Assembly: GCA_002492335.1 (NCBI GenBank)
Contig: DKYD01000104.1
Coordinates: 27,749 to 80,941, forward strand
Source of the DNA: Lachnospiraceae bacterium UBA7109
GTDB taxonomy: Bacteria > Bacillota > Clostridia > Lachnospirales > Lachnospiraceae
Direction: 5' to 3'
DNA: 53,193 nt
The stretch's first letter is position 1, and the number at the start of each line of letters is the position of its first letter. Position numbers and translations under genes: made by a program. The notes beneath the pieces were generated by a model. The model searched no databases, had not been told where the DNA came from, and worked only from the letters and a program-made list of their open reading frames with translations. This document shows, one piece after another, positions 11,630-22,901 of the stretch.

Positions 11630-13180
11630 TCATCCTATAAGATTTATTTTTTCCAATAAATAAAACATTACCGTTTTATCACCAATAATAATCTTTCCAC
11701 TACAAGCCATACCATTTTTCAAAGTCGCACTGTCACCATCTTTATTCTGTAATTTCATATTATCACACTTCACTTTAACAACATAATAAGCAGATCCCGT
11801 ATTATCATTGACAGTAATATCCTTCGATATATTAGATACCGTACCTGTAAAATATCCATATTCGCTTGATGGAAAAGCTGCAATCTCAAATTTAACTTCT
11901 TGTCCTTCAGAAATCTTTCCTATATCCGAGTTATCCACATATAACTCAGCATAAAACTCCGATTCGTTTTCCGGATAAATACTTCCAATATTGCCTCCTT
12001 CCTGGACATAACTTCCTTGCTTAAAATTCTGACTGCAATAAAAATACCCTGAAGAAGGTGCACTTATTGAACAATTGTCATTCTTTATATTATAACTTTT
12101 AAGATACTCCTCACACTCACTCTTCTTATCTTCATATGCTATTTTTTCACTGGCTAAATTTCCCTTTTCTGTGAGAATTGCAACATCATTGTTTGATATA
12201 TCATTTCCAATGTTATCAAGTTCGAGCTGCGCAGATTTCAAATTAGTATTTAAAGTGATAAGATTCTCATTACAGCTCTCAATCATCTGCTCAATATTTG
12301 CAACTTGAGTTGCCTCCAAATTAGAAAGAACCTGCCTCTTTTCTTCCTCAATTGTACTTATATTATTTTGCAAGGATTCCTTTTGATTTTTTAAACTCTC
12401 TAAATCTGTAACTTCATCAGCTTTTTCTACCTGTTGTTCTATTAGACCAATCTGGCGCTGACATTCCGTAATTTTATTATCATATTGTAGCTTCGAATAA
12501 TCATATGATGAAATATAGCCGCTAACAATACTACTATAGTAACTGTCACTTAAGCCAAATGAATTATTTCGGCTTGTAATACAATTTTTTACTTGTCCAA
12601 GCTTGATTATCTTTGTCTCATACTGCTCTATCGTTGATGTAACTGACGCAATATTGCCTTGATATATTTCCTTTTGAGCACCTGTAGAATGAGCGTCAGC
12701 CTTAATATTTTCTATCAGTAATGCTCTTCGATTCACAAATTCTTCATAATACGGATTCTCTTTATAATCTTCCGAAATAACTGTTCCATTATCAAGTGCC
12801 TTTTCATATGCATCTAAAATATCAAGCCTCGCATTTATATTCTCCAAGTCAGTCTGATACGATATAATAGTGTCAGACAAAGAATCTATTGAAACAACAT
12901 AAAGAATATCTCCCTCTTTGACATATGTACCATTTTCCACCCGACAATCAGATATCTTCCCCGACACTCCACTACTTATATCGTAAACAGAATCCGCATT
13001 TCTAAATATTCCATCACTTTTTACCACATCATCTAGTTTAAATACTGATGCCCAAATACAAGCTGATATAAGTACTGCTAAAACAGCATATATTGTATAG
13101 ACCAAAAAGGGATTGGGCTTAGACTCATAAACCTCTACACTATCACTCAAATCCTTCATTTCTGTAATAATTGGTTTCAT
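11630..13180 (-). CDS. HlyD-family bacteriocin secretion accessory protein
   Basis: 516 aa with an N-terminal TM and a long coiled coil, then a C-terminal beta-barrel-like region. Its start overlaps the PCAT stop by 4 nt (ATGA). Confidence 0.88.
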   Translation of the reverse strand: MKPIITEMKDLSDSVEVYESKPNPFLVYTIYAVLAVLISACIWASVFKLDDVVKSDGIFRNADSVYDISSGVSGKISDCRVENGTYVKEGDILYVVSIDSLSDTIISYQTDLENINARLDILDAYEKALDNGTVISEDYKENPYYEEFVNRRALLIENIKADAHSTGAQKEIYQGNIASVTSTIEQYETKIIKLGQVKNCITSRNNSFGLSDSYYSSIVSGYISSYDYSKLQYDNKITECQRQIGLIEQQVEKADEVTDLESLKNQKESLQNNISTIEEEKRQVLSNLEATQVANIEQMIESCNENLITLNTNLKSAQLELDNIGNDISNNDVAILTEKGNLASEKIAYEDKKSECEEYLKSYNIKNDNCSISAPSSGYFYCSQNFKQGSYVQEGGNIGSIYPENESEFYAELYVDNSDIGKISEGQEVKFEIAAFPSSEYGYFTGTVSNISKDITVNDNTGSAYYVVKVKCDNMKLQNKDGDSATLKNGMACSGKIIIGDKTVMFYLLEKINLIG

Positions 13181-15414
13181 CCGTCTTTACCCACCTTTCT
13201 GTTGTGCAACTCATCTGATACTTCAAGGCTCTGCTGTTTTATTAATTCTGCATATTTACCGCCGGACTCTGTCAGTTCCTTATGATTCCCGCTTTCAATA
13301 ACTCTTCCATTTTCAAACACATAGATTTTGTTACAATTCTTAATTGTGCTGAGTCTGTGGGCAATAAATATGACTGTCATATCCTTAGAAAACTCATTAA
13401 TAGTTCTATCAAGGGCACGTTCTGTGATGGCATCAAGGTTACTGGTTGCCTCATCAAGAATAAGTATATCTGGTTTCTTAAGCATAGCCCTGGCTATTGC
13501 AAGACGCTGCCTCTGTCCACCAGAAAGGTTAGCTCCATTCTCATCAAGCATAGTCTCGTATCTAAGCGGTAATTGATTAATAAAATCATGAGCCTGCGCC
13601 ATTTTGCTCGCCTCTATAATATCATCCATTGTGGCATTGTCTAAGCCAAGTGTTAAATTCTCAAATATTGTCCCACTGAATAAAAATGTTTCTTGAGGAA
13701 TATATGCGATTCTGTCTCTGATTTTTTCAATCTGAATATCCTCAATGTTATTACCATTGATAAGAATTTCTCCTTTTTCTACAGAATACATATGAAGAAG
13801 CAGCTTTGAAAGTGTTGTTTTTCCAGACCCGCTCTCACCCACAAAAGCAACCTTCTGTCCTTTTTCAATTTTGATATTTATATCCTCGAGGACCAATCTT
13901 CTTGTCCCATAACGGAAGCTTAAACCCTTTATCTCAACATCTCCGGCAATACTTTCAGGATGAAGCTTTCTATTTTCCGCCTCAGTCTTTTCCCCTTCCA
14001 AGTCTAATATTTCTCCAAGTCTGTCTGCTGCAACAACAGCAGTTTGCATCTGTGGCTGAAGATTAATAAGGTTTTTCACCGGATCTAAAAAGTATGCAAG
14101 AAGAGCATTAAAAGTAATAAGTGAACCAATCGTCATCTCGCCATTTATCACGCTTATGCCCCCAATCCATAAAATCACAATTCCACCCACAAGCTCCACA
14201 AACGTCTTAAGTGAAGTTTGCAAATTTTCTACCCAACACAGTTCAAAAATACTTCTTAACAGTTTTATAAACTTACGTTCCGTTTCCAAGTTGACCTTTG
14301 GTTCTGCATTATAAGACTTAACAGTTTGAATTCCATTTAACGATTCTACCATATATGAAGTCAACTGTGCATTATCCTCCATCTGCCTGCGATTGAGTCT
14401 CTCATACCACTTATTAAATCCGACAACGGTTGCAAAATACAGGACAACCATAATTATTGTAATAACGAAAAGCGCAGAATTTTGAATATAGAGTATTATC
14501 GCCCCAGCAACTGCCATCAGTGTATCAATCATAATTGTAAGCGTTGCACCGGAAATGGCATCTCTCACCTTACTGGCATCATTGAATCTTGAAATAATTT
14601 CGCCCACCTTTCTTGTACCAAAAAAATTCATAGGTAGTTCTAAAACATGACGATAATACCCCAGAAGCAATGCAATATCCAATTTCTGACTCAAATATAA
14701 CAGCAAATGCGACCTAAATGCATTCAATATGACTTTAAACACATTTAAAGCAATCACACCTATAGATAATGTCATAAGTGTTTTACTTAATGCATCCGGT
14801 AACACTGTATCTATGAGCTCCTGGAAATAAAACGCTCCCAATATTCCAAGAATTGTATATACTAATGAAGCAAAAAATATATGAAGAAGCAGTTTTTTCT
14901 GTGGTTTCAACAGATAAAAAAAACGGCTAAACAATCCTTTTGTTTCGTCGCCCTTTGCAAATGCTTCTTTTTTAACTAACAAGATCAAAACACCGCTCCA
15001 TTGATACTTTGGTGCTTTCCCCTCGTCGTGGACTTCTCCAAAAAAATCTTCCGGCGTCAGTTTTACAATTCCAACTCCCGGATCCGCTATGATTATCTGT
15101 TGCTTTGTAATTTTATGTATTACCACATAGTGTAACAGACTTCCATTTACAATCACATGAGCGATACAGGGCAATGGAAACTCTGAAAAAAAAGCTTCTT
15201 TATTTCCCCTTACCCCTTTTGCGCTAAACCCTAACTGTTCTGCTGCTTTAACTACACCATATACATTTGTTCCCTGTTTATCTGTACCCGCGACCTCACG
15301 GATTTGAGTTATGCCTATTTTATAGCCATTTTGTTTACAAATAGTCGCAAGACAGGCAGCTCCACAATCTGTAATGTCATGTTGTTTTATACAATAATAT
15401 TTCATCTTTTTCAT
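13177..15414 (-). CDS. peptidase C39-domain ABC transporter (PCAT; double-glycine leader processing/export)
   Basis: N-terminal C39 motif QHDITDCGAACLATI with the catalytic Cys, a 6-TM domain, Walker A GESGSGKTT, signature LSGGQRQRLAIARA and Walker B ILILDEATS. Confidence 0.93.
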   Translation of the reverse strand: MKKMKYYCIKQHDITDCGAACLATICKQNGYKIGITQIREVAGTDKQGTNVYGVVKAAEQLGFSAKGVRGNKEAFFSEFPLPCIAHVIVNGSLLHYVVIHKITKQQIIIADPGVGIVKLTPEDFFGEVHDEGKAPKYQWSGVLILLVKKEAFAKGDETKGLFSRFFYLLKPQKKLLLHIFFASLVYTILGILGAFYFQELIDTVLPDALSKTLMTLSIGVIALNVFKVILNAFRSHLLLYLSQKLDIALLLGYYRHVLELPMNFFGTRKVGEIISRFNDASKVRDAISGATLTIMIDTLMAVAGAIILYIQNSALFVITIIMVVLYFATVVGFNKWYERLNRRQMEDNAQLTSYMVESLNGIQTVKSYNAEPKVNLETERKFIKLLRSIFELCWVENLQTSLKTFVELVGGIVILWIGGISVINGEMTIGSLITFNALLAYFLDPVKNLINLQPQMQTAVVAADRLGEILDLEGEKTEAENRKLHPESIAGDVEIKGLSFRYGTRRLVLEDINIKIEKGQKVAFVGESGSGKTTLSKLLLHMYSVEKGEILINGNNIEDIQIEKIRDRIAYIPQETFLFSGTIFENLTLGLDNATMDDIIEASKMAQAHDFINQLPLRYETMLDENGANLSGGQRQRLAIARAMLKKPDILILDEATSNLDAITERALDRTINEFSKDMTVIFIAHRLSTIKNCNKIYVFENGRVIESGNHKELTESGGKYAELIKQQSLEVSDELHNRKVGKDG

Positions 15415-15549: not shown

Positions 15550-16120
15550 CTACTCATTTGGTATATACCAGTAACTATTAAATCCATACATGTAAACTCT
15601 TGCTGACTTCGGCATTTGAACGACTGCATTATATATATTGTAATAATCGCCTACGCCCCTCCAATTGCAAATGCCCCTGCCGCACCTAAGATAACATATC
15701 CCGGATTAAGCAAAAAAATAATATACGGAACAAATCCAAATACTACACTTGGAAAAATGCTCATAATTATAAATCTCCGTTTACTAAATGTTTCCGGACC
15801 GACTACAAATAACATCCCCCATTTCAGAGCATGATATAAGTATACTCTTCCCTTAAAAAAATTGCATGTAACAATTCATGCGGTACAAATGTCAAACACA
15901 TGATACCGCCACCTATACCTATCAACTCAAGATTTCTTACTTCAGTTCTAACGTATATTAACATCACAAACAAAATAGTTACAGCAATCGAAATCACATT
16001 CATAACTACTGCGAATTTTCTGCCTTCCAATTCTTTAAATTTCACAGCATTCGGCATATGCTCTCCATGGGGCAGCGTAGACGGATCGCCATTATACTTT
16101 CCTTTATAAATAAGTTTCAT
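15550..16120 (-). pseudogene. DUF3267-type putative zincin membrane peptidase, broken by two homopolymer frameshifts
   Basis: Frame 1 (the track's 98-aa ORF) carries HELLHA. Reading continues in a second frame (..FFKGRVYLYHALKWGMLFVVGPETFSKRRF...GAFAIGG) after a T7 run. It continues in a third frame (GVGDYYNIYNAVVQMPKSARVYMYGFNSYWYIPNE*) after a G4 run. Confidence 0.7.
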
Positions 16121-16254: not shown

Positions 16255-17022
16255 TTAAAACAAACATTGTTTTCCTTTAAAAATAAATATTAACGCACCA
16301 CCCGTTACAAATACGATTTGTAGTACTGTTGTAATTGCCCCAGTCGGTATAAAATCTGATATTATTGCACCAAATAAATTAAATGACATATGCAAATAAA
16401 TTGCATACTTTATTTCCCCTGTAATAATCACGATATTTGCACACAATGCCCCCAAAAATATCGTGTATAACAACTGCTCCAAATTTGCATGAAATAATCC
16501 AAAAAACAGACTACTAATCGCAATTGCTATAACTTTTCCATATGGCAGCAGCTCTTCTAACAATATTTTTCTAAACAAAAGTTCTTCAAAAACAGGTGAA
16601 ATAATTACCACGCAAACAAAAAGTAAAACTATTGGTACATTCTCTACATAAGATTCTACAACGCCTTTATTCATTTCTCCGGTTATCAAATATATTTTAA
16701 GATAATTAACTATCTTATCTGTAACGTTAGATAATACTGTTGTCATTCCTAATAATATAAGTAAATATCCGCCACCATCACAAATCGAAAGCTTTCGTTC
16801 CAAGGATACTTCATTTATATCTCTTTTCTTCATACCCTTAGTAAATAGTTGAAAGAAGTATAAATACCCAACACTGGCCATACATCCACCTATAAGCTGA
16901 ATTGATTGTGTACTTAAAGGTAAACTTACAACTTCCATAACACCAACAACCAAACCACTAAATATACTAGACAGGAGCATGGCGCCTAGCAAGGCGCCAC
17001 TAATTTTACTGATTGTTTTCAT
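16255..17022 (-). CDS. CPBP-family intramembrane metalloprotease (Abi / bacteriocin self-immunity type)
   Basis: Multi-TM protein with motifs FEELLFRK, FGLFHAN and YLHMSFN. Confidence 0.85.
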   Translation of the reverse strand: MKTISKISGALLGAMLLSSIFSGLVVGVMEVVSLPLSTQSIQLIGGCMASVGYLYFFQLFTKGMKKRDINEVSLERKLSICDGGGYLLILLGMTTVLSNVTDKIVNYLKIYLITGEMNKGVVESYVENVPIVLLFVCVVIISPVFEELLFRKILLEELLPYGKVIAIAISSLFFGLFHANLEQLLYTIFLGALCANIVIITGEIKYAIYLHMSFNLFGAIISDFIPTGAITTVLQIVFVTGGALIFIFKGKQCLF

Positions 17023-17041: not shown

Positions 17042-17902
17042 CTAAAACAGCGCAAAAATTATCAAAGTTACTGCCACAAAAACAAATCGCTTCGACACCA
17101 AACACTTTTTCCACTGTATCTCTTCTTTAATAAAAGCAAATATTTTTTCTCTTTTTTTCCAATAAATAATAATTGCCCCAAAACAAATAATTGCAAATAA
17201 CAAAAAAGCTACTGTCTTTAACTCTGTACTGTTAATTCGGGACATAACTTCTGCCATAGAATTATTAAAGACATGAAATATCACTGCCCAATATAAAGAA
17301 AACTCTGTTGCTACATAACCTAAAATTATGCCTATTAATACAGCATAAATTCCTTGCTCTATATTCCCATGATATATTGCAAAAAGAATAGCTGATATTA
17401 TAATAGCTGATTTATTTCCTAATATTTTCAACAAATTCAATATGATATCGCGAAATAGTACTTCTTCAAAAAACGGGCCGATTATACAAGTAAATAAAAT
17501 AATGCTTATCGATTCCATCTGACTGGTATCGTTGACTAATGAACTCTGAATGGTATACCCTATATTATGAAGAGTTACATTTAAGATCTCTATTATTATA
17601 TTAGCCAATATCTGGGCAATAATAATCCCACCAATGCCCCCTAATAAAGCTGACTTTGACATTCTCCTATATATTATTTTTCTGTGATTCTTATTCACAT
17701 ACTTAACTGAAAACAATATTGTAAAAAAAACGAGCCAACTAGTAAACATAAAAATCCCACTCATCTTCAAAAACTCTGTAAATTCTTGATTGTCTGTAAA
17801 AGCAATAAACAGCAACATCAACACTATTTCCACTAAATATCTTACTAAGATAATGTTTGCTATCTTTTCCATATTCTTTTTAATTTGCATAGTATTTTGC
17901 AT
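17042..17902 (-). CDS. CPBP-family intramembrane metalloprotease (Abi / bacteriocin self-immunity type), paralogue 2
   Basis: Multi-TM protein with motifs FEEVLFRD, FAIYHGN and FHVFNN. Confidence 0.85.
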   Translation of the reverse strand: MQNTMQIKKNMEKIANIILVRYLVEIVLMLLFIAFTDNQEFTEFLKMSGIFMFTSWLVFFTILFSVKYVNKNHRKIIYRRMSKSALLGGIGGIIIAQILANIIIEILNVTLHNIGYTIQSSLVNDTSQMESISIILFTCIIGPFFEEVLFRDIILNLLKILGNKSAIIISAILFAIYHGNIEQGIYAVLIGIILGYVATEFSLYWAVIFHVFNNSMAEVMSRINSTELKTVAFLLFAIICFGAIIIYWKKREKIFAFIKEEIQWKKCLVSKRFVFVAVTLIIFALF

Positions 17903-17923
17903 ATCTTATACCCCGCATACATA

Positions 17924-17952
17924 AAGGTATACTCCAATCCGAAGTATACCTT
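17924..17952 (-). terminator. perfect 10-bp stem hairpin between the last peptide gene and the first CPBP gene (partial terminator or processing site)
   Basis: AAGGTATACT-N9-AGTATACCTT read directly. Followed on the minus strand by TTATGTAT, a weak U-tract. Confidence 0.5.
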
Positions 17953-17962
17953 CCTTTGGTTC

Positions 17963-18109
17963 TCATGATCGACAAAGTTTCATCATTGCATTTGCCCATC
18001 GATCCGCTAGTTTCCCTGCATAAAATCCAACTTTATACCAAAATCCAGCACCACCATTAATGCTTTGCATTTCATCCATTTTCATTTCATAAAAATATTC
18101 TTTTTCCAT
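17963..18109 (-). CDS. double-glycine-leader bacteriocin precursor, peptide 1 (48 aa: MEKEYFYEMKMDEMQSINGG|AGFWYKVGFYAGKLADRWANAMMKLCRS)
   Basis: Hand translation. GAGGGG RBS 9 nt upstream of the ATG. Leader has E(-8) M(-7) I(-4) G(-2) G(-1). The 28-aa mature part has a GxxxG motif and net charge +4. Located just upstream of the immunity and PCAT genes. Confidence 0.85.
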   Translation of the reverse strand: MEKEYFYEMKMDEMQSINGGAGFWYKVGFYAGKLADRWANAMMKLCRS

Positions 18110-18126
18110 ATTTACATACCCCTCTA

Positions 18127-18285
18127 CTATTTTTTACTTCTTAACCCTTTCATAAAACCCCTTCCAAAATCATAAATTTCTTCTGCAAATGAAAGTGCGA
18201 TACGAATAACTTTTCCCCAACCTCCGCCATTAATATTTTCCATTTCACTATCTGACAAATTATAAAATATTTCTTTTTTGATCAT
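18127..18285 (-). CDS. double-glycine-leader bacteriocin precursor, peptide 2 (52 aa: MIKKEIFYNLSDSEMENINGG|GWGKVIRIALSFAEEIYDFGRGFMKGLRSKK)
   Basis: Hand translation. AAGGAGAG RBS. Leader LSDSEMENINGG matches the LS..E(L/M)..I.GG consensus. The 31-aa mature part has a GxxxG motif and net charge +4. Double stop TAGTAG. Confidence 0.85.
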   Translation of the reverse strand: MIKKEIFYNLSDSEMENINGGGWGKVIRIALSFAEEIYDFGRGFMKGLRSKK

Positions 18286-18362
18286 ATATTTATTCACTCT
18301 CCTTATTTCTACAAATTATTTTCCATCTTTAAGGTGAACAGTTATACATGCTCTCCTCTTAT

Positions 18363-18491
18363 TTAACAAAACGCTCTAAACAGTCGATAAATAGGCTTTA
18401 AAACAGATTTCCATATTCTTCCTCCACCTTCTGTTTCTTGCATTTCTTTATATGAAAGTTCAGAAAGTTTTTTCTTTTCAAAACTTATCAT
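18363..18491 (-). CDS. double-glycine-leader peptide 3 (42 aa: MISFEKKKLSELSYKEMQETEGG|GRIWKSVLKPIYRLFRAFC); candidate inducing pheromone or third bacteriocin peptide
   Basis: Hand translation. AGAGAGGTGAG RBS. Leader LSELSYKEMQETEGG. The 19-aa mature part has net charge +5 and no acidic residues. It is the first gene of the peptide operon. Confidence 0.8.
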   Translation of the reverse strand: MISFEKKKLSELSYKEMQETEGGGRIWKSVLKPIYRLFRAFC

Positions 18492-18593
18492 ACTATCTCA
18501 CCTCTCTTTTCTAATTATTTCTTTAACTTTTACACTTATTCGAAAAAGCGATAATCTTAACCCGGGTACTTTTCTTAAGTGCTTGTGTTTTTG

Positions 18594-18795
18594 AGACTCT
18601 GATGGTTTGCGCAAATTAATCAGAGTACTCTTTAATTTATTATATAAAGCCGTTTGCAAGAGCAAACCTCTCTATACCGAAATATTTGCAATATATCGGG
18701 ACTAATTTCCACAAGAATTGTTTTAACTCTTGTTAAATGTGTGGTGGAACAGTCAATGGCTTCTCTCTATTTTTCAGAAAGGAGCAGCTATACCT
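18594..18795 (+). ncRNA. candidate IS110 bridge/seek RNA in the 5' non-coding end of the IS
   Basis: About 200 nt of non-coding leader upstream of the recombinase. It contains the hairpins GAGACTCTGA-N17-TCAGAGTACTC and GTTTGC-AAGA-GCAAAC. IS110-group elements are known to encode a structured guide RNA here. No covariance check was possible. Confidence 0.3.
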
Positions 18796-20058
18796 ATGAA
18801 AGTTGTTTATCAAACCTGCTGTGGTGTCGATATTCACAAATCTTTTCTCGTTGCCGCAATCATCAAAACCACTTCTGGAGTTCAACCTTCGTATCAAAAG
18901 AAGCGCTTCTCCACCTTCAACAATTCCATTCTTGAGTTTAAGAAATGGCTGTTGGACAATTCCTGTCGTGACATTTGTATGGAATCCACTGAAAAATACT
19001 GGATACCTGTGTTCAATCTTTTGGAAGACGAAATCAACGTCACCATCGCTAATCCCAAATGGGTGAAAGCTGTCAAAGGGAACAAGGACGATGCCAAAGA
19101 TTCCAAATGGATCGGGGACTTGTTCAGATTGGGGCTTGTTCCGGAAAGTTATATACCGTGCAAAGAAATCCGTATTCTCAGGGAGTTTACGCGATACCGG
19201 TATAAACTGACTTCCTGCAAAAGCAGCGAGAAGAATCGATTTCAGAATGCGCTTACTGTTTGTAATGTCGCATTAGATTCGGTTGTTTCCGATATCTTTG
19301 GGAAATCAGCCACCTCCGTCATCGATTATCTCCTTGAACAGTCCAACAATTCCATCAACCACGAAGAAATATCCTCCAGACTGCTTCGCTCACTCAAGAA
19401 GAAGTCCGAAAATGTCATTGAGTCCATCGAAGGGTATCAGATGACTGATTCCCAGAAATATCGTATGCGTCTTGTACACGCACACATGGATTATATCAGA
19501 TCTACAATTGTAGATATAGACTCAATGATTGATTTGTTGGTCGAACCTTATGATAATGCTGTCAAGCTACTATGTACCATCCCCGGAGTAGACCGCAATA
19601 GTGCGATCACTATTATCTCTGAGATTGGTACAGATATGACACAGTTTTCTAATTCCAAGCGTTTATGTTGCTGGGTGGGTCTGACTCCTGGTAATAATGA
19701 GTCTGCTGGTAAGAAGAAATCTGTCCGGATAACACGTGCCGGTGTCTACCTCAAACCTGCGTTGGTGCAAGTTTCCCATGCAGCCGTGAAATCTGACAAG
19801 TCCCCTTACTACAAAGCCAAATATGAACGCATCATGAAACGTCGTGAAAAAAAGCGTGCCATTATTGCGATCGTCCGGATGATCCTCACTGCCACCTATC
19901 ATATGCTGTCTACAGGCGAAGCGTGGAATTCCTCCGATCTTTACAAGATTGATATGCCTGAACCTCTTAAAGAAAAACCAAAAGAGAAAGCTATCAAACA
20001 AGCTATGAAGCTATTAATTGCTGAGAGAATCATTGAAGAACCCCTGTTAGTCACATAG
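18796..20058 (+). CDS. IS110-family transposase/recombinase
   Basis: N-terminus MKVVYQTCCGVDIHKSFLVA (DEDD/RuvC-like GIDVHK-type motif). C-terminal region ...LCCWVGLTPGNNESAGKKK..ITRAG... is typical of the family. AAAGGAG RBS upstream of ATG 18796. Confidence 0.92.
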   Translation: MKVVYQTCCGVDIHKSFLVAAIIKTTSGVQPSYQKKRFSTFNNSILEFKKWLLDNSCRDICMESTEKYWIPVFNLLEDEINVTIANPKWVKAVKGNKDDAKDSKWIGDLFRLGLVPESYIPCKEIRILREFTRYRYKLTSCKSSEKNRFQNALTVCNVALDSVVSDIFGKSATSVIDYLLEQSNNSINHEEISSRLLRSLKKKSENVIESIEGYQMTDSQKYRMRLVHAHMDYIRSTIVDIDSMIDLLVEPYDNAVKLLCTIPGVDRNSAITIISEIGTDMTQFSNSKRLCCWVGLTPGNNESAGKKKSVRITRAGVYLKPALVQVSHAAVKSDKSPYYKAKYERIMKRREKKRAIIAIVRMILTATYHMLSTGEAWNSSDLYKIDMPEPLKEKPKEKAIKQAMKLLIAERIIEEPLLVT

Positions 20059-20260
20059 CATTTTTCAATATATCAACCTTGTTTCAAAAGGCTATTATCT
20101 AATAGCTTGTTTAAGTGCGCCAGTTTTTGGCTGTCCTGTACTTTCTTTCACACTAATCCCCTTTTAATAATTTTAATATATTAGACGTTTGTGAAACGCC
20201 GAAAGATGCATAAATACAGTATTTTTTTGTTGTCAAAACAAATTCGACAACAACAAATAT

Positions 20261-20526
20261 CAGTTTCTTTCTCTTCTTGATGAATCCATTAACCTTAATG
20301 AAATTGTTCCTGTTTCTTTTGTTTCTCATTTTCACGCTCGCACCGGAAGACCTCGCAAACACCAGCTTTATCCTATGCTCAAAGTTCTTTTGATTCAGCG
20401 CATTTTCTCATTCCCAACAGACACTCTCCTGATTGTTTTTTGAAATATCCTCAGGAATTGCGTGATTTCTGCGGCTTTGATGTTGCACCAGATGGTTTAA
20501 AATTTACTCGTTTTAAACAGGAATGA
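20261..20526 (+). pseudogene. relic of a DUF772/InsH-N-terminal-type transposase (frameshifted and truncated)
   Basis: Reads ...HFHARTGRPRKHQLYPMLKVLLIQRIFSFPTDTLLIVF, then a frameshift in a T-run, then LKYPQELRDFCGFDVAPDGLKFTRFKQE*. Only about 88 codons remain. Confidence 0.6.
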
Positions 20527-20703: not shown

Positions 20704-22089
20704 TTATTTATTCGATAAACGGTTATTTTTTATCCTAATTTCCGCATAAAATTGATTTTCTTCTTTTTTGTACAGAAACTCCCCGTTATATTTTTGAACT
20801 ATATTTTTAATATTTTTCAATCCAAAACCGTGGTTCTTTTTATCTTCTTTTGTTGTTTCAAAATTATTTCCACATAAGTTTTCTTCACTATTACAAGAAT
20901 TTTTTTCAATAATATATGTATATATCTTTCCTGTTTTTATGGTAAACGATATATATTTCTCTAAATCATTCACCTTTTCAACCGCTTCAATCGCATTAAC
21001 TATTAAATTTGAAGCAATAATCCCCATATCCCTATCAGAAATAATCAGATTATCCGGTACATATCCTTTCACTTCAATTTTACTTTTATTTTTCACAGGT
21101 AATAAATAATAGTTTAATATCACATTCACCGTCTCATTTCCCACATCATAATCATATTTGCTTATAAGATTTATCTCCTTTAACGTATCAGCAATATATC
21201 TTTCCAGTCCATAATAATCCTTTTTTTCAGAATAATTTTTCATTTGAATTAATTCTGCAATAATGTCATGTCTAAATTGCCGGGTTTTCTGTTCTTTTGC
21301 TAACAACACCTCAAAATGTTTCTTTTGCTGAACACTATATTTTTCCAGCATTTCATTCTCCAAAAAATATTTTTGTTGTACATTAAAAGAATAAATCATT
21401 AACAAAAACGCAACAAATATTATTCCTCCTCCAACCATCACAAGACCCAGTCCCAAAATACCTGGTTTTGTATTTAATACCTCCGCCAGTGAATATGTAA
21501 AAAAAGATAACATCGCTGTAATTATAAACAAGGGAAACGAAATTATAATATTCATCTTGGGTTTTAAAACAAATGCATTTCTTTCAAGTTTTCTCCCCAG
21601 GAGAAAGAAATATATCCATAATAAAGCGATAACCAGAGCCGTATAAACTATAGATATAATATTTGTATTGACACTAATAAAACACAAAAAAATATATTCT
21701 ATTACACTTTCTAATATTGTCAACAACGGAAATGCTATAAAAAATAAATTAATTGATTCTAACCATAACAAATGATATACTCCTGTAACATTTGCAATCG
21801 ATGCTATTAATGCCAACAGAAACGTTACATCTAATCTGTTAACATATATGATGCAAAGAACAGACGCTATATTTATGACTATCATAATTATATTTCTTCT
21901 GTATTTCTTATCGCTTCTTCTCTTTCCAAATATGGTATAATAAAATGATAAATATTCTATTATGATTGTTACATATAACAATAAATTCAACAAAACTTCC
22001 ATACTTTTATTTCCGTTCCAATCTTCTAAAATAACATCCTTTTCTTTCTTAATTCCACTCTTTTCAATTTCGACACTTATCAAAATCAA
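20704..22089 (-). CDS. AgrC/ComD/PlnB-type (HPK10) membrane sensor histidine kinase
   Basis: The N-terminal half has about 6 hydrophobic helices. The C-terminal ATPase carries NHGFGLKNIKNIVQKYNGEF. It abuts the LytTR regulator. Start is uncertain (TTG 22089 or ATG 22002). Confidence 0.85.
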   Translation of the reverse strand: MILISVEIEKSGIKKEKDVILEDWNGNKSMEVLLNLLLYVTIIIEYLSFYYTIFGKRRSDKKYRRNIIMIVINIASVLCIIYVNRLDVTFLLALIASIANVTGVYHLLWLESINLFFIAFPLLTILESVIEYIFLCFISVNTNIISIVYTALVIALLWIYFFLLGRKLERNAFVLKPKMNIIISFPLFIITAMLSFFTYSLAEVLNTKPGILGLGLVMVGGGIIFVAFLLMIYSFNVQQKYFLENEMLEKYSVQQKKHFEVLLAKEQKTRQFRHDIIAELIQMKNYSEKKDYYGLERYIADTLKEINLISKYDYDVGNETVNVILNYYLLPVKNKSKIEVKGYVPDNLIISDRDMGIIASNLIVNAIEAVEKVNDLEKYISFTIKTGKIYTYIIEKNSCNSEENLCGNNFETTKEDKKNHGFGLKNIKNIVQKYNGEFLYKKEENQFYAEIRIKNNRLSNK

Positions 22090-22771
22090 TTATTTTCTGC
22101 ACTACTTCTTTATTCCTTCGCCTTGATATTGGCACTTTCCCACCATTATTCATTTTTATATAGTGTTTATAAACATCAAGCACATAAAGAACATTTATAA
22201 TATAACTTCTATGTACTACAATAAAAATTCTTTCATCCAAATCATCCCATATAGTCTTCAAAGATTTATTACTTTCAAATACCTTGCCTTTAGAATATAT
22301 TTTCAAATAATCGCGGTTGGCTTCTATCACTTCAATTTCTCTTTGTTGTAAAAAGCAATCCTCACCTCTATATTTCAACTTTATCATTTCATATCCCGCT
22401 AAAGAAAGAAAAGCATTATCTAATGCCTCAAAAAATTCTTCTTTTTCAATTGGTTTAGTCACAAATCTTGTCGCGCCTATTTTAAAAGCTTCTTTAAATC
22501 GCTCACGTTTGCTTGTCAACATTATTATATTCGTTTCGATTCCTCTTTTAGCTAATTCTTTCGCAGCTTGGATACCATCCACCTCCGGCATATCAATATC
22601 CAACAAAATAATATTATAACCTTCTGACATTTCTAATAAATCCTTAGCAGAAAAACAACTATAAATATCATATGTATAATTTCCATTTTTTCTATATTGT
22701 TCCAGAAGTTCTTTTACTTCTCCATGCATTACCTTATCATCGTCACAAATCACAATACCCACATGCGCCAT
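22064..22771 (-). CDS. LytTR-family response regulator (AgrA/ComE/PlnC-like)
   Basis: Receiver domain (VICDDD...ILLDIDMPEVDG) plus a C-terminal LytTR domain (..FIVVHRSYIINVLYV..). Confidence 0.9.
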   Translation of the reverse strand: MAHVGIVICDDDKVMHGEVKELLEQYRKNGNYTYDIYSCFSAKDLLEMSEGYNIILLDIDMPEVDGIQAAKELAKRGIETNIIMLTSKRERFKEAFKIGATRFVTKPIEKEEFFEALDNAFLSLAGYEMIKLKYRGEDCFLQQREIEVIEANRDYLKIYSKGKVFESNKSLKTIWDDLDERIFIVVHRSYIINVLYVLDVYKHYIKMNNGGKVPISRRRNKEVVQKIIDFDKCRN

Positions 22772-22867: not shown

Positions 22868-22901
22868 CAAAAAGGCGCTGCAATTTTGCAGCGCCTTTTT
22901 A
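22868..22901 (-). terminator. rho-independent terminator of spoVG (symmetric, potentially bidirectional)
   Basis: AAAAAGGCGCTGCA-N4-TGCAGCGCCTTTTT. Confidence 0.8.

What the first reader, a model, noticed from the sequence alone, without database searches (positions are those of the whole stretch)
17963..18491. Three unannotated double-glycine-leader peptide genes hidden in the 'empty' gap upstream of the immunity and exporter genes
The ORF track shows nothing between 17902 and 18654, but hand translation of the minus strand gives three tandem small ORFs of 42, 52 and 48 aa.

- Each is preceded by a purine-rich RBS: AGAGAGGTGAG, AAGGAGAG, GAGGGG.
- Each begins with a 20-23-aa leader ending in GG, and all three have E(-8) and M(-7). 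I(-4) is present in peptides 1 and 2; peptide 3 has T at -4.
- L(-12) is present in peptides 2 and 3. This is the consensus recognised by C39-peptidase ABC exporters.
- A C39 PCAT with an intact catalytic Cys, its HlyD partner and two CPBP immunity-type genes follow on the same strand.
- The predicted mature peptides are AGFWYKVGFYAGKLADRWANAMMKLCRS, GWGKVIRIALSFAEEIYDFGRGFMKGLRSKK and GRIWKSVLKPIYRLFRAFC.
- All are cationic and amphipathic, and none is one I recognise as a named bacteriocin.

This is the most likely novel bioactive system in the window.
Basis: partly seen in the sequence, partly recalled or inferred. Interest (0 to 1): 0.88.

Follow-up and report, generated by a model that had tools for sequence, protein, structure and literature searches.

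The report
Two-peptide bacteriocin operon with pheromone-like peptide
The three small genes are real: two of them form a distant, gut-Clostridia version of the lactococcin G-type two-peptide bacteriocin with its own immunity gene and exporter. The third is probably a secreted signal peptide. This is a new member of a well-known kind of system, not a new kind.

Summary
Three minus-strand ORFs of 42, 52 and 48 aa (here pepA, pepB, pepC) have ribosome-binding sites and double-glycine (GG) leaders, and they are the only such ORFs in the window.

- **Real genes.** pepA and pepB recur in an ENA contig with dN/dS of 0.07 and 0.14. pepB, pepC and the first CPBP gene (CPBP-family intramembrane protease, CPBP1) recur as a colinear unit in a metagenome contig.
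- **Family.** pepB passes NCBIfam's cutoff for lactococcin G-beta/enterocin 1071B. pepC's best hit is lactococcin G-alpha/enterocin 1071A, below cutoff. Both keep the GxxxG helix-packing motif at the homologous position.
- **Differences from the canonical family.** Both peptides lack the cationic C-terminal tails. The gene order is beta then alpha. Immunity is a CPBP/Abi protein, not LagC/Eni.
- **pepA.** It is 19 aa when mature, +5 in charge and strongly amphipathic, and it has no family. It lies downstream of an AgrC-like kinase and a LytTR regulator, so I read it as an inducing peptide. This is inferred, not shown.
- **Damage.** An IS110 and an IS fragment separate the kinase from pepA.
- **Side finding.** A roughly 150-nt conserved leader element precedes pepA and unrelated GG-peptide genes in ten other fetched loci, nearly all labelled Lachnospiraceae.

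Verdict: new member of a known kind, moderate interest.

The parts
18363..18491 (-). pepA: 42-aa GG-leader precursor. The predicted mature peptide is the 19-aa GRIWKSVLKPIYRLFRAFC (+5, average mass 2353.9 Da). Candidate inducing peptide, or alternatively a one-peptide bacteriocin.
   Evidence: ORF and RBS. Ortholog in L001 with 38/42 identity and dN/dS 0.07; the mature part differs only by R2K. No family hit and no other relatives. Hydrophobic moment 0.82, shuffle p<0.001.
18127..18285 (-). pepB: 52-aa precursor of the beta-like peptide. Mature 31 aa, GWGKVIRIALSFAEEIYDFGRGFMKGLRSKK, with a G22xxxG26 motif, +4, 3561.2 Da.
   Evidence: NCBIfam NF038034 lactococcin G-beta/enterocin 1071B: 40.9 bits against a cutoff of 37. 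Orthologs in L001 (88% identity, dN/dS 0.14) and L007 (18/30 mature identity). Alignment A4 conserves Y-[DE]-F..G...G. Mature-only HHalign against canonical beta peptides gives P=0.0011.
17963..18109 (-). pepC: 48-aa precursor of the alpha-like peptide. Mature 28 aa, AGFWYKVGFYAGKLADRWANAMMKLCRS, with a G8xxxG12 motif, +4, 3241.8 Da.
   Evidence: Best NCBIfam hit is NF038035 lactococcin G-alpha/enterocin 1071A: 30.3 bits, E 3.3e-7, below the cutoff of 37. The ortholog directly after the pepB ortholog in L007 has the same length with no gaps, 16/28 identity, dN/dS 0.21. Alignment A3 keeps GxxxG and A15 invariant. Mature-only HHalign against canonical alpha peptides gives P=0.0029. No relatives among 1.84 billion representative proteins.
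18518..18677 (-). Conserved non-coding leader/promoter element directly upstream of pepA. Its blocks, in order: a TTTATATAA -10-like box; the inverted repeat ACTCTGAT-N15-ATCAGAGT; AAGCAC; an AAAAGTACC-NN-GGT palindrome; CTTTTT; AATAAGTGTAAA; and the RBS.
   Evidence: blastn and nhmmer find 16 copies in 11 sources (the window and 10 fetched loci). 13 of them lie 12-26 nt upstream of a GG-leader-type peptide ORF (one ends in AGG), and those ORFs encode unrelated cargo. RNAalifold and pair counts: 94.7% of cells paired, 7 pairs with double-sided change against 2.4+-1.0 in shuffles. No Rfam match.
17923..17953 (-). 13-bp stem-loop between the pepC stop and the CPBP1 start. Possible partial terminator or mRNA stabiliser that would favour peptide transcripts over downstream genes.
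   Evidence: The 81-nt stretch that contains it (17895-17975) folds to an MFE of -19.9 kcal/mol, z=-2.5 against shuffles. No T-run follows it.
17042..17902 (-). CPBP1: 286-aa CPBP/Abi (Rce1-like) membrane protein. Inferred cognate immunity protein of the pepB/pepC pair.
   Evidence: Pfam PF02517, E 8e-17. Motifs EEVLFR, FAIYH and HVFNN are intact. A full-length colinear homolog sits directly after the beta-alpha pair in L007 (29% identity, E 2e-36).
16255..17022 (-). CPBP2: second CPBP/Abi protein, 255 aa. Its role is open: immunity to pepA, orphan immunity, or a processing function.
   Evidence: Pfam PF02517, E 1.6e-17. Motifs intact. Weak MroQ-like hit, 38.8 bits against a cutoff of 270. No counterpart in the other fetched loci.
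15651..16120 (-). Frameshifted DUF3267 'putative zincin peptidase' gene, carrying an HELLH motif and split into 98-aa and 54-aa ORFs.
   Evidence: Pfam PF11667 on the 54-aa piece, E 3e-8. The two ORFs are in different frames.
13177..15414 (-). C39 peptidase-containing ABC exporter (PCAT), 745 aa.
   Evidence: Pfam Peptidase_C39, ABC_membrane and ABC_tran. Q11/C17/H95/D111, Walker A and LSGGQ present. 71-88% identical to PCATs of many Lachnospiraceae.
11630..13180 (-). HlyD-type accessory/membrane-fusion protein, 516 aa.
   Evidence: Pfam HlyD_3 and HlyD_D23. It follows the PCAT in nearly all related loci.
18713..20172 (+). IS110-family insertion sequence (420-aa transposase at 18796..20058), inserted just upstream of the conserved leader element. 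These are the minimum extents.
   Evidence: Pfam DEDD_Tnp_IS110 and Transposase_20. 75% DNA identity to a Roseburia sp. 831b IS110 over exactly 18713-20172. The same junction is seen in Logan contig L002.
20253..20522 (+). Frameshifted N-terminal fragment of a second transposase (from its sequence it looks IS1182/IS5-like, DUF772-type).
   Evidence: 82% DNA identity to an unannotated stretch of an Agathobacter rectalis plasmid. The translation carries a frameshift and a stop. The family assignment is from recognising the sequence, not from an HMM.
20704..22089 (-). AgrC/HPK10-type membrane histidine kinase, 461 aa.
   Evidence: Pfam HATPase_c_5 (GHKL), E 5e-21. NCBIfam AgrC, E 2e-8, below cutoff.
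22064..22771 (-). LytTR-family response regulator, 235 aa.
   Evidence: Pfam Response_reg plus LytTR.

Best explanation
The gap holds the structural genes of a class II (unmodified, GG-leader) bacteriocin operon carried on an 11-kb low-GC island. The transcription order is: conserved leader element, pepA, pepB, pepC, stem-loop, CPBP1, CPBP2, a broken DUF3267 gene, the PCAT exporter, and HlyD.

Proposed mechanism:
1. **Export (inferred from domains).** The three precursors are recognised through their GG leaders by the C39 domain of the PCAT. They are cut after GG and exported with the HlyD partner.
[quoted passage not shown] They pack helix to helix through their GxxxG motifs in the target membrane, probably docked on a membrane protein, and permeabilise the cell. 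For the lactococcin G group that receptor is UppP/BacA.
3. **Immunity (inferred).** CPBP1 protects the producer. The basis is its conserved position after the beta-alpha pair, plus the precedent of Abi-type immunity proteins for plantaricin EF, plantaricin JK and sakacin 23K.
4. **Signalling (weakest step, about 0.45).** The 19-aa cationic pepA is the secreted inducing peptide sensed by the upstream AgrC-type kinase and LytTR regulator, as in plantaricin A, the Blp system or gallocin GSP.

An IS110 and an IS fragment now lie between the kinase and pepA. They leave the conserved leader element intact.

Confidence for steps 1-3 taken together is about 0.75.
For: - **Real coding genes.** Exact ORFs, RBSs and leaders. 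The only GG-leader ORFs in the window. Purifying selection against L001: pepA dN/dS 0.07 and pepB 0.14, with 18 of 28 nucleotide differences at third codon positions. pepC against L007: dN/dS 0.21, no indels.
- **Two-peptide pair.** pepB scores 40.9 bits on NF038034, and its L001 ortholog 39.7, against a cutoff of 37. pepC scores 30.3 and its L007 ortholog 26.4 on NF038035, each as the best or only hit. The controls Ent1071A and Ent1071B score 69.7 and 60.7.
- **Motifs.** GxxxG is conserved at aligned positions in both peptides.
- **Leader-free test.** Mature-only HHalign gives alpha-alpha P=0.0029 and beta-beta P=0.0011. The crossed pairs give P=0.18 and 0.27.
- **Synteny.** Beta, alpha and CPBP are colinear in L007.
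- **Export.** PCAT catalytic residues and an HlyD partner are present.
- **Regulation.** A LytTR regulator and a GHKL HATPase_c_5 kinase lie upstream on the same strand. A regulator-kinase-short GG peptide layout recurs in L032.
- **Literature.** GxxxG is essential and UppP/BacA is the receptor of the lactococcin G group (PMC12765074). Abi-type immunity is established for other two-peptide bacteriocins (PMC8538875). One PCAT exports both the pheromone and the two peptides in the gallocin system (PMC10100652).
Against: - pepC is below NCBIfam's cutoff. About 12 model positions of both family models are leader, and leader-only hits score 13-16 bits.
- Mature-only HHalign probabilities are low (10-20%), so common descent with lactococcin G is likely but not secure.
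- Both peptides lack the canonical C-terminal tails. The gene order is reversed relative to ent1071A-ent1071B. There is no LagC/Eni-type immunity gene.
- The L007 pair has net charge 0.
- **Against pepA as a pheromone:**
  - No LytTR-type direct repeats were found in any intergenic region.
  - pepA is absent from L007.
  - In L001 the nearly identical pepA follows a membrane protein with no detectable similarity to the window's kinase. That protein gives only weak, sub-threshold kinase hits.
  - A second CPBP gene could be pepA's immunity gene.
- There are no expression or activity data. The IS insertions and the frameshifted DUF3267 gene hint at decay.
Confidence: 0.72

Rival explanations
1. 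pepA is not a signal. It is a third, independent one-peptide bacteriocin (or a dual-function peptide like plantaricin A), and CPBP2 is its immunity protein. The locus would then encode two bacteriocins.
For: - There are two CPBP genes but only one two-peptide pair. Only CPBP1 has a counterpart next to the beta-alpha pair in L007.
- pepA is the most amphipathic and most cationic of the three: moment 0.82, charge +5.
- No LytTR boxes were found.
- The protein upstream of pepA in L001 is unrelated to the window's kinase.
- In other loci the conserved leader element precedes ordinary bacteriocin-type cargo rather than pheromone-like peptides.
Against: - At 19 aa, pepA is short for a class IId bacteriocin and typical for inducing peptides (general knowledge of IP-673, CSP and PlnA).
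- It has no GxxxG motif and no bacteriocin family hit.
- In both loci that carry it, it sits immediately after a large polytopic, sensor-like membrane protein.
Confidence: 0.3
2. The three peptides are three separate single-peptide bacteriocins with no obligate pairing.
For: Each has its own RBS and its own GG leader. Family evidence for the alpha-like peptide is below threshold.
Against: - The pepB and pepC homologs are adjacent, in the same order and followed by the same type of CPBP gene, in an otherwise different locus.
- Each carries one GxxxG motif at the position homologous to the interacting motifs of lactococcin G/enterocin 1071.
- HMM and HHalign pairings are specific: alpha to alpha and beta to beta, not crossed.
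Confidence: 0.08
3. In this strain the locus is a silent or decaying remnant. IS110 and a second IS fragment have uncoupled it from its kinase and regulator, so the peptides are not made. This concerns activity, not identity, and is compatible with the best explanation.
For: - IS110 at about 18713-20172 and a frameshifted transposase fragment at 20253-20522 lie between the kinase and pepA.
- The DUF3267 gene is frameshifted.
- A simple consensus scan finds no sigma-70 promoter upstream of pepA.
Against: - All three peptide genes, both CPBPs, the PCAT, HlyD, the kinase and the regulator are intact ORFs with catalytic motifs.
- The conserved 5' element, including a TATAAT box, is complete. The IS lies just outside its 5' edge.
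Confidence: 0.3
4. The ORFs are chance reading frames in AT-rich intergenic DNA.
For: They are short, and the region has only 30-33% GC.
Against: - Curated-threshold HMM hit at E 1.8e-10.
- In-frame conservation with dN/dS of 0.07-0.21 in two independent contigs.
- RBSs, canonical leaders and the functional context all fit.
Confidence: 0.01

Closest known systems
Lactococcin G / lactococcin Q / enterocin 1071 / enterocin C group of class IIb two-peptide bacteriocins (NCBIfam NF038035 alpha, NF038034 beta)
   Same: - Two adjacent GG-leader genes.
- The beta-like peptide passes the curated family cutoff, and the alpha-like peptide has this family as its best hit.
- A GxxxG motif at the homologous position in each peptide. 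The local motifs G-x-W/F-x-x-[IV]-G-x-x-x-G (alpha) and Y-[DE]-F-x-x-G-[FL]-x-K-G (beta) are shared.
- Export by a C39 ABC transporter with an accessory protein.
   Different: - The host is a gut Clostridia lineage (relatives of its exporter are Lachnospiraceae), not Lactococcus or Enterococcus.
- The peptides are shorter (28 and 31 aa against 39 and 35). They lack the conserved tails GNMSDVNQAxRINRKK(K)H and KEGNKxKWKN.
- The gene order is beta then alpha, not alpha then beta (pEF1071).
- Immunity is a roughly 290-aa CPBP/Abi protein, not the roughly 110-aa LagC/Eni type.
- The locus is linked to a LytTR/AgrC-type two-component system.
- Mature-only similarity is weak (HHalign P about 1e-3).
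Plantaricin EF / JK loci of Lactiplantibacillus plantarum (PlnA-PlnBCD three-component regulation, Abi-type immunity PlnI/PlnL, PlnGH exporter)
   Same: This is the closest match for how the system works overall:
- Two-peptide bacteriocins with GxxxG motifs.
- CPBP/Abi immunity genes directly after the peptide pair.
- A short cationic GG-leader inducing peptide.
- An HPK10-type kinase and a LytTR regulator.
- A PCAT with an accessory protein.
   Different: - No sequence relationship of the peptides to PlnE, F, J or K was detected.
- The putative inducer gene lies after the regulator and kinase and heads the bacteriocin operon, instead of preceding the kinase.
- No LytTR direct repeats were found.
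Gallocin A / Blp-type loci of streptococci (GSP or BlpC pheromone, BlpHR, BlpAB)
   Same: One PCAT secretes both the GG-leader pheromone and the two bacteriocin peptides. A two-component system controls several operons (PMC10100652).
   Different: Gallocin peptides are long disulfide-stabilised hairpins, and their immunity peptide is small and peptide-like. The peptides here are short helical GxxxG peptides with CPBP immunity.

Membership tests
Lactococcin G-beta / enterocin 1071B family (NF038034) | Score at or above NCBI's curated cutoff (37 bits) | tested here: met
   pepB 40.9 bits, E 1.8e-10. L001 ortholog 39.7 bits. L007 ortholog only 25.6 bits. Control Ent1071B 60.7 bits.
Lactococcin G-alpha / enterocin 1071A family (NF038035) | Score at or above NCBI's curated cutoff (37 bits) | tested here: not met
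   pepC 30.3 bits, E 3.3e-7. L007 ortholog 26.4 bits. In both cases this family is the best hit. Control Ent1071A 69.7 bits. Leader-only peptides score 13-16 bits on this model.
Lactococcin G / enterocin 1071 group | GxxxG helix-helix motif at the homologous position in both peptides (alpha G7/8xxxG11/12; beta G18xxxG22) | tested here: met
   Alignments A3 and A4 keep the glycines of alpha G8xxxG12 and beta G22xxxG26 invariant across the new and canonical peptides.
Lactococcin G / enterocin 1071 group | Similarity of the mature peptides independent of the leader | tested here: inconclusive
   Mature-only HHalign: alpha P=0.0029 over 16 columns, beta P=0.0011 over 14 columns, with probabilities of 10-20%. 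Crossed pairs give P=0.18 and 0.27. phmmer against PDB chains found nothing.
Lactococcin G / enterocin 1071 group | Conserved cationic C-terminal tails (alpha ...NMSDVNQAxRINRKK(K)H; beta ...KEGNKxKWKN) | tested here: not met
   Both new peptides end 11-12 residues (alpha) and 8 residues (beta) earlier in the alignments, as ...KLCRS and ...GLRSKK.
Lactococcin G / enterocin 1071 group | Gene order alpha then beta, followed by a small (about 110 aa) LagC/Eni-type immunity gene | tested here: not met
   pEF1071 has entA, entB, then a roughly 110-aa membrane ORF. The window and L007 both have beta, alpha, then a 286-302-aa CPBP.
Lactococcin G / enterocin 1071 group | Activity needs both peptides; the receptor is UppP/BacA | not testable with these tools
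   This needs synthetic peptides and resistant-mutant mapping. The literature basis is PMC12765074.
Class IIb (two-peptide) bacteriocins in general | Two adjacent GG-leader peptide genes in one operon with one adjacent immunity gene, exported by a dedicated C39 ABC transporter with an accessory protein | tested here: met
   pepB and pepC are 18 nt apart. CPBP1 starts 60 nt after pepC. PCAT and HlyD lie on the same strand. The peptide-pair-plus-CPBP unit is conserved in L007.
Abi/CPBP bacteriocin immunity proteins (PlnI, PlnL, SkkI type) | Polytopic membrane protein with the Rce1-like domain and its three conserved motifs, encoded directly next to the cognate bacteriocin genes | tested here: met
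   PF02517 at E 8e-17 and 1.6e-17. EExxxR, FxxxH and HxxxN are present in CPBP1, CPBP2 and the L007 CPBP. Whether they actually protect was not testable.
Three-component peptide-pheromone regulation (inducing peptide, HPK10 kinase, LytTR regulator) | AgrC/HPK10-type kinase and LytTR response regulator in the locus | tested here: met
   HATPase_c_5 at E 5e-21, plus Response_reg and LytTR. AgrC model at E 2e-8, below cutoff.
Three-component peptide-pheromone regulation | Short cationic GG-leader peptide gene adjacent to and co-oriented with the kinase and regulator | tested here: inconclusive
   pepA fits in size, charge and leader, and is the next native gene after the kinase. However, 2.2 kb with two IS elements intervene. 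pepA is absent from L007. In L001 it follows an unrelated membrane protein.
Three-component peptide-pheromone regulation | Pairs of 9-10-bp direct repeats about 21 bp apart (LytTR boxes) in the regulated promoters | tested here: not met
   No 9-mer direct repeats (up to 1 mismatch, spacing 18-24 nt) were found upstream of the regulator, pepA, pepB, CPBP1 or the PCAT. In the consensus of the conserved element I see only a loose AAGT[AG]T repeat 21 nt apart, and it is degenerate in the window's copy (read by eye).

The most novel reading that the evidence does not exclude
pepB and pepC define a new, rare subfamily of lactococcin G-like two-peptide bacteriocins in gut Clostridia (Lachnospiraceae by the relatives of its exporter). 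Its members are tail-less, ordered beta then alpha, and protected by a CPBP protein. It might still use UppP/BacA, or it might use a different receptor in Clostridia.

In addition, the roughly 150-nt conserved element upstream of pepA could be a previously undescribed structured 5' leader. It could be a cis-regulatory RNA or a composite operator. It would control many unrelated GG-leader peptide operons across Lachnospiraceae genera.
Probability: 0.3. Interest if true: 0.55.

Novelty: new member of a known kind. Interest (0 to 1): 0.36.

Why it matters
- **New peptides in an understudied group.** Unmodified bacteriocins of strictly anaerobic gut Clostridia are much less studied than those of lactic acid bacteria. 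This locus offers a concrete pair that can be synthesised chemically (31 and 28 aa) together with a candidate inducer (19 aa).
- **Rarity.** These peptides are extremely rare in public data: three loci in all, found in searches of a 5.8-billion-protein collection and a 241-million-record metagenome collection. No paper in the searched library holds the sequences.
- **A natural deletion experiment.** If the pair is active, it tests which parts of lactococcin G-type peptides are needed for receptor docking and killing. It keeps the GxxxG cores and lacks both C-terminal tails.
- **The shared leader element.** It could give a handle on how Lachnospiraceae co-regulate their variable bacteriocin cargo.
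- **What it does not change.** None of this alters the known paradigm for class II bacteriocins.

Tried and rejected
- **Pfam on the peptides.** Only sub-threshold leader or LcnG-beta hits.
- **phmmer against PDB chains.** Nothing at E up to 10.
- **Word-index homolog searches.** pepB found one relative, pepC none and pepA none beyond its own cluster.
- **Exhaustive HMMER with pepC.** Only itself and one spurious 1203-aa protein.
- **tblastn against plasmids.** Weak hits in Levilactobacillus brevis and Staphylococcus epidermidis (E 0.8-2). I inspected them and do not count them as family members.
- **First genome and metagenome scans.** They used leader-derived patterns and confirmed nothing. 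A pattern from the mature core then found L007.
- **Profile search of 86 loci.** No further pepA, pepB or pepC relatives. Weak hits are driven by the leader.
- **A beta-like/alpha-like looking pair in L018.** It failed the NCBIfam test, with leader-level scores only.
- **LytTR direct-repeat search.** Negative.
- **Simple sigma-70 scan upstream of pepA.** Negative.
- **Exact IS110 ends from other copies.** This failed: only the same Logan contig carries the identical transposase, and a search with the Roseburia copy returned only that same record. The boundaries given are therefore minimum extents from the 75%-identical Roseburia copy.
- **Organism identification.** Neither genome scan returned the window's own genome. 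Lachnospiraceae is inferred from PCAT relatives at 71-88% identity, synteny with Coprococcus ammoniilyticus, and IS relatives in Roseburia and Agathobacter.
- **Structure prediction.** Not attempted. The tool folds single chains and accepts only window sequences or hits of the search for homologous proteins, so a heterodimer or receptor complex could not be modelled.
- **Sequences from memory.** Only enterocin 1071A and B were verified against a record.
Full report
**1. The observation**

Reading the minus strand of 17800-18800 and listing all ORFs of at least 20 aa confirms three tandem small ORFs:
- pepA, 18491..18363, 42 aa.
- pepB, 18285..18127, 52 aa from the ATG. The upstream in-frame GTG overlaps the RBS, so I reject it as the start.
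- pepC, 18109..17963, 48 aa.

A regex scan of all six frames finds no other credible GG-leader ORF in the 53 kb. The mature peptides carry +5, +4 and +4 net charge. Their helical hydrophobic moments are reached by at most 0.3% of shuffles.

All three exact sequences already exist as called proteins in the public collection, in near-singleton clusters.

**2. Context**

The genes sit in a low-GC island of about 11 kb, roughly 11.6-22.8 kb (GC 0.28-0.38 against 0.41-0.49 outside). The island lies between a CCA-adding-enzyme gene and spoVG.

On the minus strand the order is:
1. LytTR response regulator (22771..22064).
2. AgrC-like GHKL histidine kinase (22089..20704).
3. pepA, pepB, pepC.
4. Two CPBP/Rce1-like proteins (17902..17042 and 17022..16255).
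5. A frameshifted DUF3267 zincin gene (16120..15651).
6. A C39-ABC exporter, i.e. a PCAT (15414..13177).
7. An HlyD-type protein (13180..11630).

The PCAT has Q11, C17, H95 and D111, and the CPBPs have their three motifs.

Two plus-strand insertions lie between the kinase and pepA. One is an IS110 element, at least 18713-20172, 75% identical to a Roseburia IS110. The other is a frameshifted N-terminal fragment of another transposase at 20253-20522.

**3. Are they real genes?**

Two independent contigs say yes.
- **L001** (ENA) carries pepA (38/42 identity) and pepB (46/52 identity). DNA similarity to the window starts at pepA's RBS and ends at pepB's stop. Differences are concentrated at third codon positions, with dN/dS of 0.07 and 0.14. 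The contig ends 45 nt after pepB, so it says nothing about pepC.
- **L007** (metagenome) was found with a degenerate DNA pattern for the mature core AEEIYDFGRGF. It carries a pepB homolog, then immediately a pepC homolog, then a CPBP gene.
  - The pepC homolog (mature ESFWYNVGYFVGQMADRWADAMFKLAKS) has the same length with no gaps, 16/28 identity and dN/dS 0.21.
  - The CPBP gene is colinear with CPBP1 (29% identity, E 2e-36).

The conserved unit is therefore beta-like, alpha-like, CPBP. L007 has no pepA.

Beyond these loci the peptides are essentially absent from public data and from the searchable literature.

**4. What are they?**

NCBIfam gives pepB 40.9 bits on NF038034, lactococcin G-beta/enterocin 1071B (cutoff 37). 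The L001 ortholog scores 39.7 and the L007 ortholog 25.6. pepC scores 30.3 and its L007 ortholog 26.4 on NF038035, lactococcin G-alpha/enterocin 1071A (cutoff 37), as the best or only hit.

The authentic enterocin 1071A and B, read from plasmid pEF1071, score 69.7 and 60.7. These controls also show that about 12 positions of each model are leader. Peptides that share only the leader score 13-16 bits.

Alignments with the canonical peptides keep the GxxxG motifs invariant: alpha G8xxxG12 and beta G22xxxG26. The surrounding residues also align: G-x-[WF]-x-x-[IV]-G...G in alpha, and Y-[DE]-F..G...G in beta.

To remove the leader's contribution I compared mature-only profiles. New-alpha against canonical-alpha gives P=0.0029, and new-beta against canonical-beta gives P=0.0011. 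The crossed pairs give P=0.18 and 0.27. The pairing is specific, but the signal is weak.

I conclude that pepB and pepC almost certainly work as a class IIb two-peptide bacteriocin. They are a distant branch of the lactococcin G group, or conceivably a convergent look-alike. Only enterocin 1071A and B were verified against a record.

**5. Differences from the canonical group**

- Both peptides are shorter and lack the conserved cationic tails.
- The gene order is beta then alpha in both the window and L007. pEF1071 has alpha then beta.
- Immunity is a CPBP/Abi protein, not the roughly 110-aa LagC/Eni type seen downstream of entB.

Abi-type immunity is documented for plantaricin EF, plantaricin JK and sakacin 23K (PMC8538875). 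The lactococcin G group targets UppP/BacA and depends on GxxxG packing (PMC12765074).

**6. pepA**

Its mature form is 19 aa, +5, the most amphipathic of the three, and ends in Cys. It has no GxxxG motif and no family. It is under strong purifying selection: the mature part is identical in L001 except R2K, with four synonymous changes. It heads the operon.

Once the IS material is set aside, it is the next gene after the regulator and the kinase. A similar layout of regulator, kinase and short GG peptide occurs in L032. One PCAT exporting both a GG-leader pheromone and a two-peptide bacteriocin is established for gallocin (PMC10100652). I therefore favour an inducing-peptide role, at a probability of about 0.45.

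Four observations count against this:
- No LytTR direct repeats were found.
- The protein upstream of pepA in L001 is unrelated to the window's kinase and is only weakly kinase-like.
- L007 has no pepA.
- The second CPBP gene could be an immunity gene for pepA acting as a bacteriocin.

**7. A side finding that bears on regulation**

A blastn of the related PCAT loci against the window showed something unexpected. The roughly 150 nt directly upstream of pepA (18503-18657) is 73-83% identical to sequences in many other PCAT loci.

nhmmer finds 16 copies in 11 sources: the window plus 10 fetched loci, of which 9 are labelled Lachnospiraceae and one is Eubacterium sp. CAG:248. 13 of them lie 12-26 nt upstream of a GG-leader-type peptide ORF, and those ORFs encode unrelated cargo. 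One locus holds three copies.

The element has a fixed block order:
- GATAT.
- TTTATATAA, which is -10-like and reads TATAAT in the window.
- The inverted repeat ACTCTGAT-N15-ATCAGAGT.
- AAGCAC.
- AAAAGTACC-NN-GGT, a palindrome whose centre varies as CCTAGG, CCCGGG or CCATGG.
- CTTTTT.
- AATAAGTGTAAA.
- The RBS.

RNAalifold proposes three helices. On these, 94.7% of cells pair. Seven pairs show double-sided changes against 2.4+-1.0 in shuffles (0 of 500 reach the observed value). Slid controls pair at only 26-48%. Rfam has no match.

My reading is a sigma-A-type promoter followed by a structured 5' leader of about 130 nt. A composite DNA operator is not excluded, and the self-complementary centre of the palindrome actually favours a DNA reading for that block.

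Two consequences follow for this finding:
- pepA is the first gene of a unit that uses the regulatory cassette shared by these loci.
- The IS110 lies just outside the cassette's 5' edge, with the junction between 18678 and 18713. The operon's own control region is therefore intact.

**8. Export module and organism**

The PCAT is 71-88% identical to PCATs of Lachnospira multipara, L. pectinoschiza, Coprococcus ammoniilyticus, Roseburia and many Lachnospiraceae MAGs. Each of these carries different GG-leader cargo. The exporter is thus a conserved chassis with swappable peptides.

The C. ammoniilyticus locus is syntenic with the window on the spoVG/glgCD side, at 72% DNA identity, but holds other cargo and no CPBP. 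The window's genome was not returned by either genome scan. Lachnospiraceae is inferred.

**9. Verdict**

- **Observation:** confirmed.
- **Interpretation:** supported and sharpened. The system is a class IIb bacteriocin operon consisting of a beta-like and alpha-like pair, CPBP immunity, and a PCAT with HlyD. It is headed by a probable inducing peptide and sits next to a LytTR/AgrC two-component system. IS insertions lie between the sensor genes and the operon.
- **Novelty:** every component type and the overall logic are well known, so this is a new member of a known kind. The peptides themselves are rare, undescribed and easy to test.
- **Interest:** moderate, 0.36.
- **Least expected result:** the conserved leader element shared by unrelated bacteriocin operons across these loci.

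Noticed in passing
window 18518-18677 (minus strand); copies at L009 7125-7257, L012 3860-3988, L013 4811-4932 and 6751-6879, L015 2-122, L016 4579-4710, L018 7339-7460, L019 5322-5430 and 5469-5595, L022 3896-4020 and 6696-6822, L043 613-744, 2241-2373 and 6999-7131, L048 6847-6972: A conserved non-coding element of about 135-160 nt (73-83% DNA identity) lies 12-26 nt upstream of GG-leader peptide genes with unrelated cargo, mostly in Lachnospiraceae loci. It holds a -10-like TTTATATAA box, a covarying inverted repeat and a long-range helix. On the proposed structure 94.7% of cells pair, and 7 pairs show double-sided change against 2.4 expected. It has no Rfam match. It could be a structured 5' leader RNA or a composite operator.
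   Followed up: partly
window 18713-20172 (+) and 20253-20522 (+): An intact IS110-family element and a frameshifted N-terminal fragment of a second transposase are inserted between the histidine kinase gene and pepA. The second fragment looks IS1182/IS5-like and is 82% identical to an unannotated stretch of an Agathobacter rectalis plasmid. The IS110 left end falls within 35 nt of the 5' edge of the conserved leader element. An identical IS-pepA junction is present in Logan contig SRR5329486_301 (L002).
   Followed up: partly
window 15651-16120 (minus strand): A DUF3267 'putative zincin peptidase' gene (HELLH motif) lies between CPBP2 and the PCAT. It is split by a frameshift into 98-aa and 54-aa ORFs. 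This is either a pseudogene or a sequencing error. Its role in bacteriocin loci is unknown.
   Followed up: partly
L007 95-313, 249-479, 612-1166: The metagenome contig that carries the pepB/pepC/CPBP module also encodes two other GG-leader peptides, one of them glycine-rich and lactobin A/cerein 7B-like. It also encodes a 184-aa signal-peptidase-II-like (Peptidase_A8) membrane protein upstream. It is therefore a multi-bacteriocin locus with a different composition.
   Followed up: no
L009 236-2923 against window 25624-22939; L008-L056 generally: The PCAT and HlyD pair is a conserved chassis at 71-88% protein identity across Lachnospiraceae genera, and its GG-leader cargo is highly variable. 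The Coprococcus ammoniilyticus locus occupies the same chromosomal site next to spoVG/glgCD as the window's island, but with different cargo and a different kinase and regulator. This suggests cargo swapping at a fixed site.
   Followed up: partly
L001 8256-9644 and 10160-10204: In L001 the nearly identical pepA-pepB cassette follows a 462-aa polytopic membrane protein. That protein has only weak, sub-threshold kinase-ATPase similarity and no detectable similarity to the window's kinase. DNA homology to the window is limited to the cassette itself. The last 16 nt of the contig (GTGAACTTTGAAAATT) could be the start of a further GG-leader gene.
   Followed up: no
window 22869-22900: A perfect 15-bp inverted repeat (AAAAAGGCGCTGCAA/TTGCAGCGCCTTTTT) lies just downstream of spoVG. 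It is probably a bidirectional terminator marking the island boundary, and it accounts for the weak sub-threshold Rfam rli40 hit.
   Followed up: no
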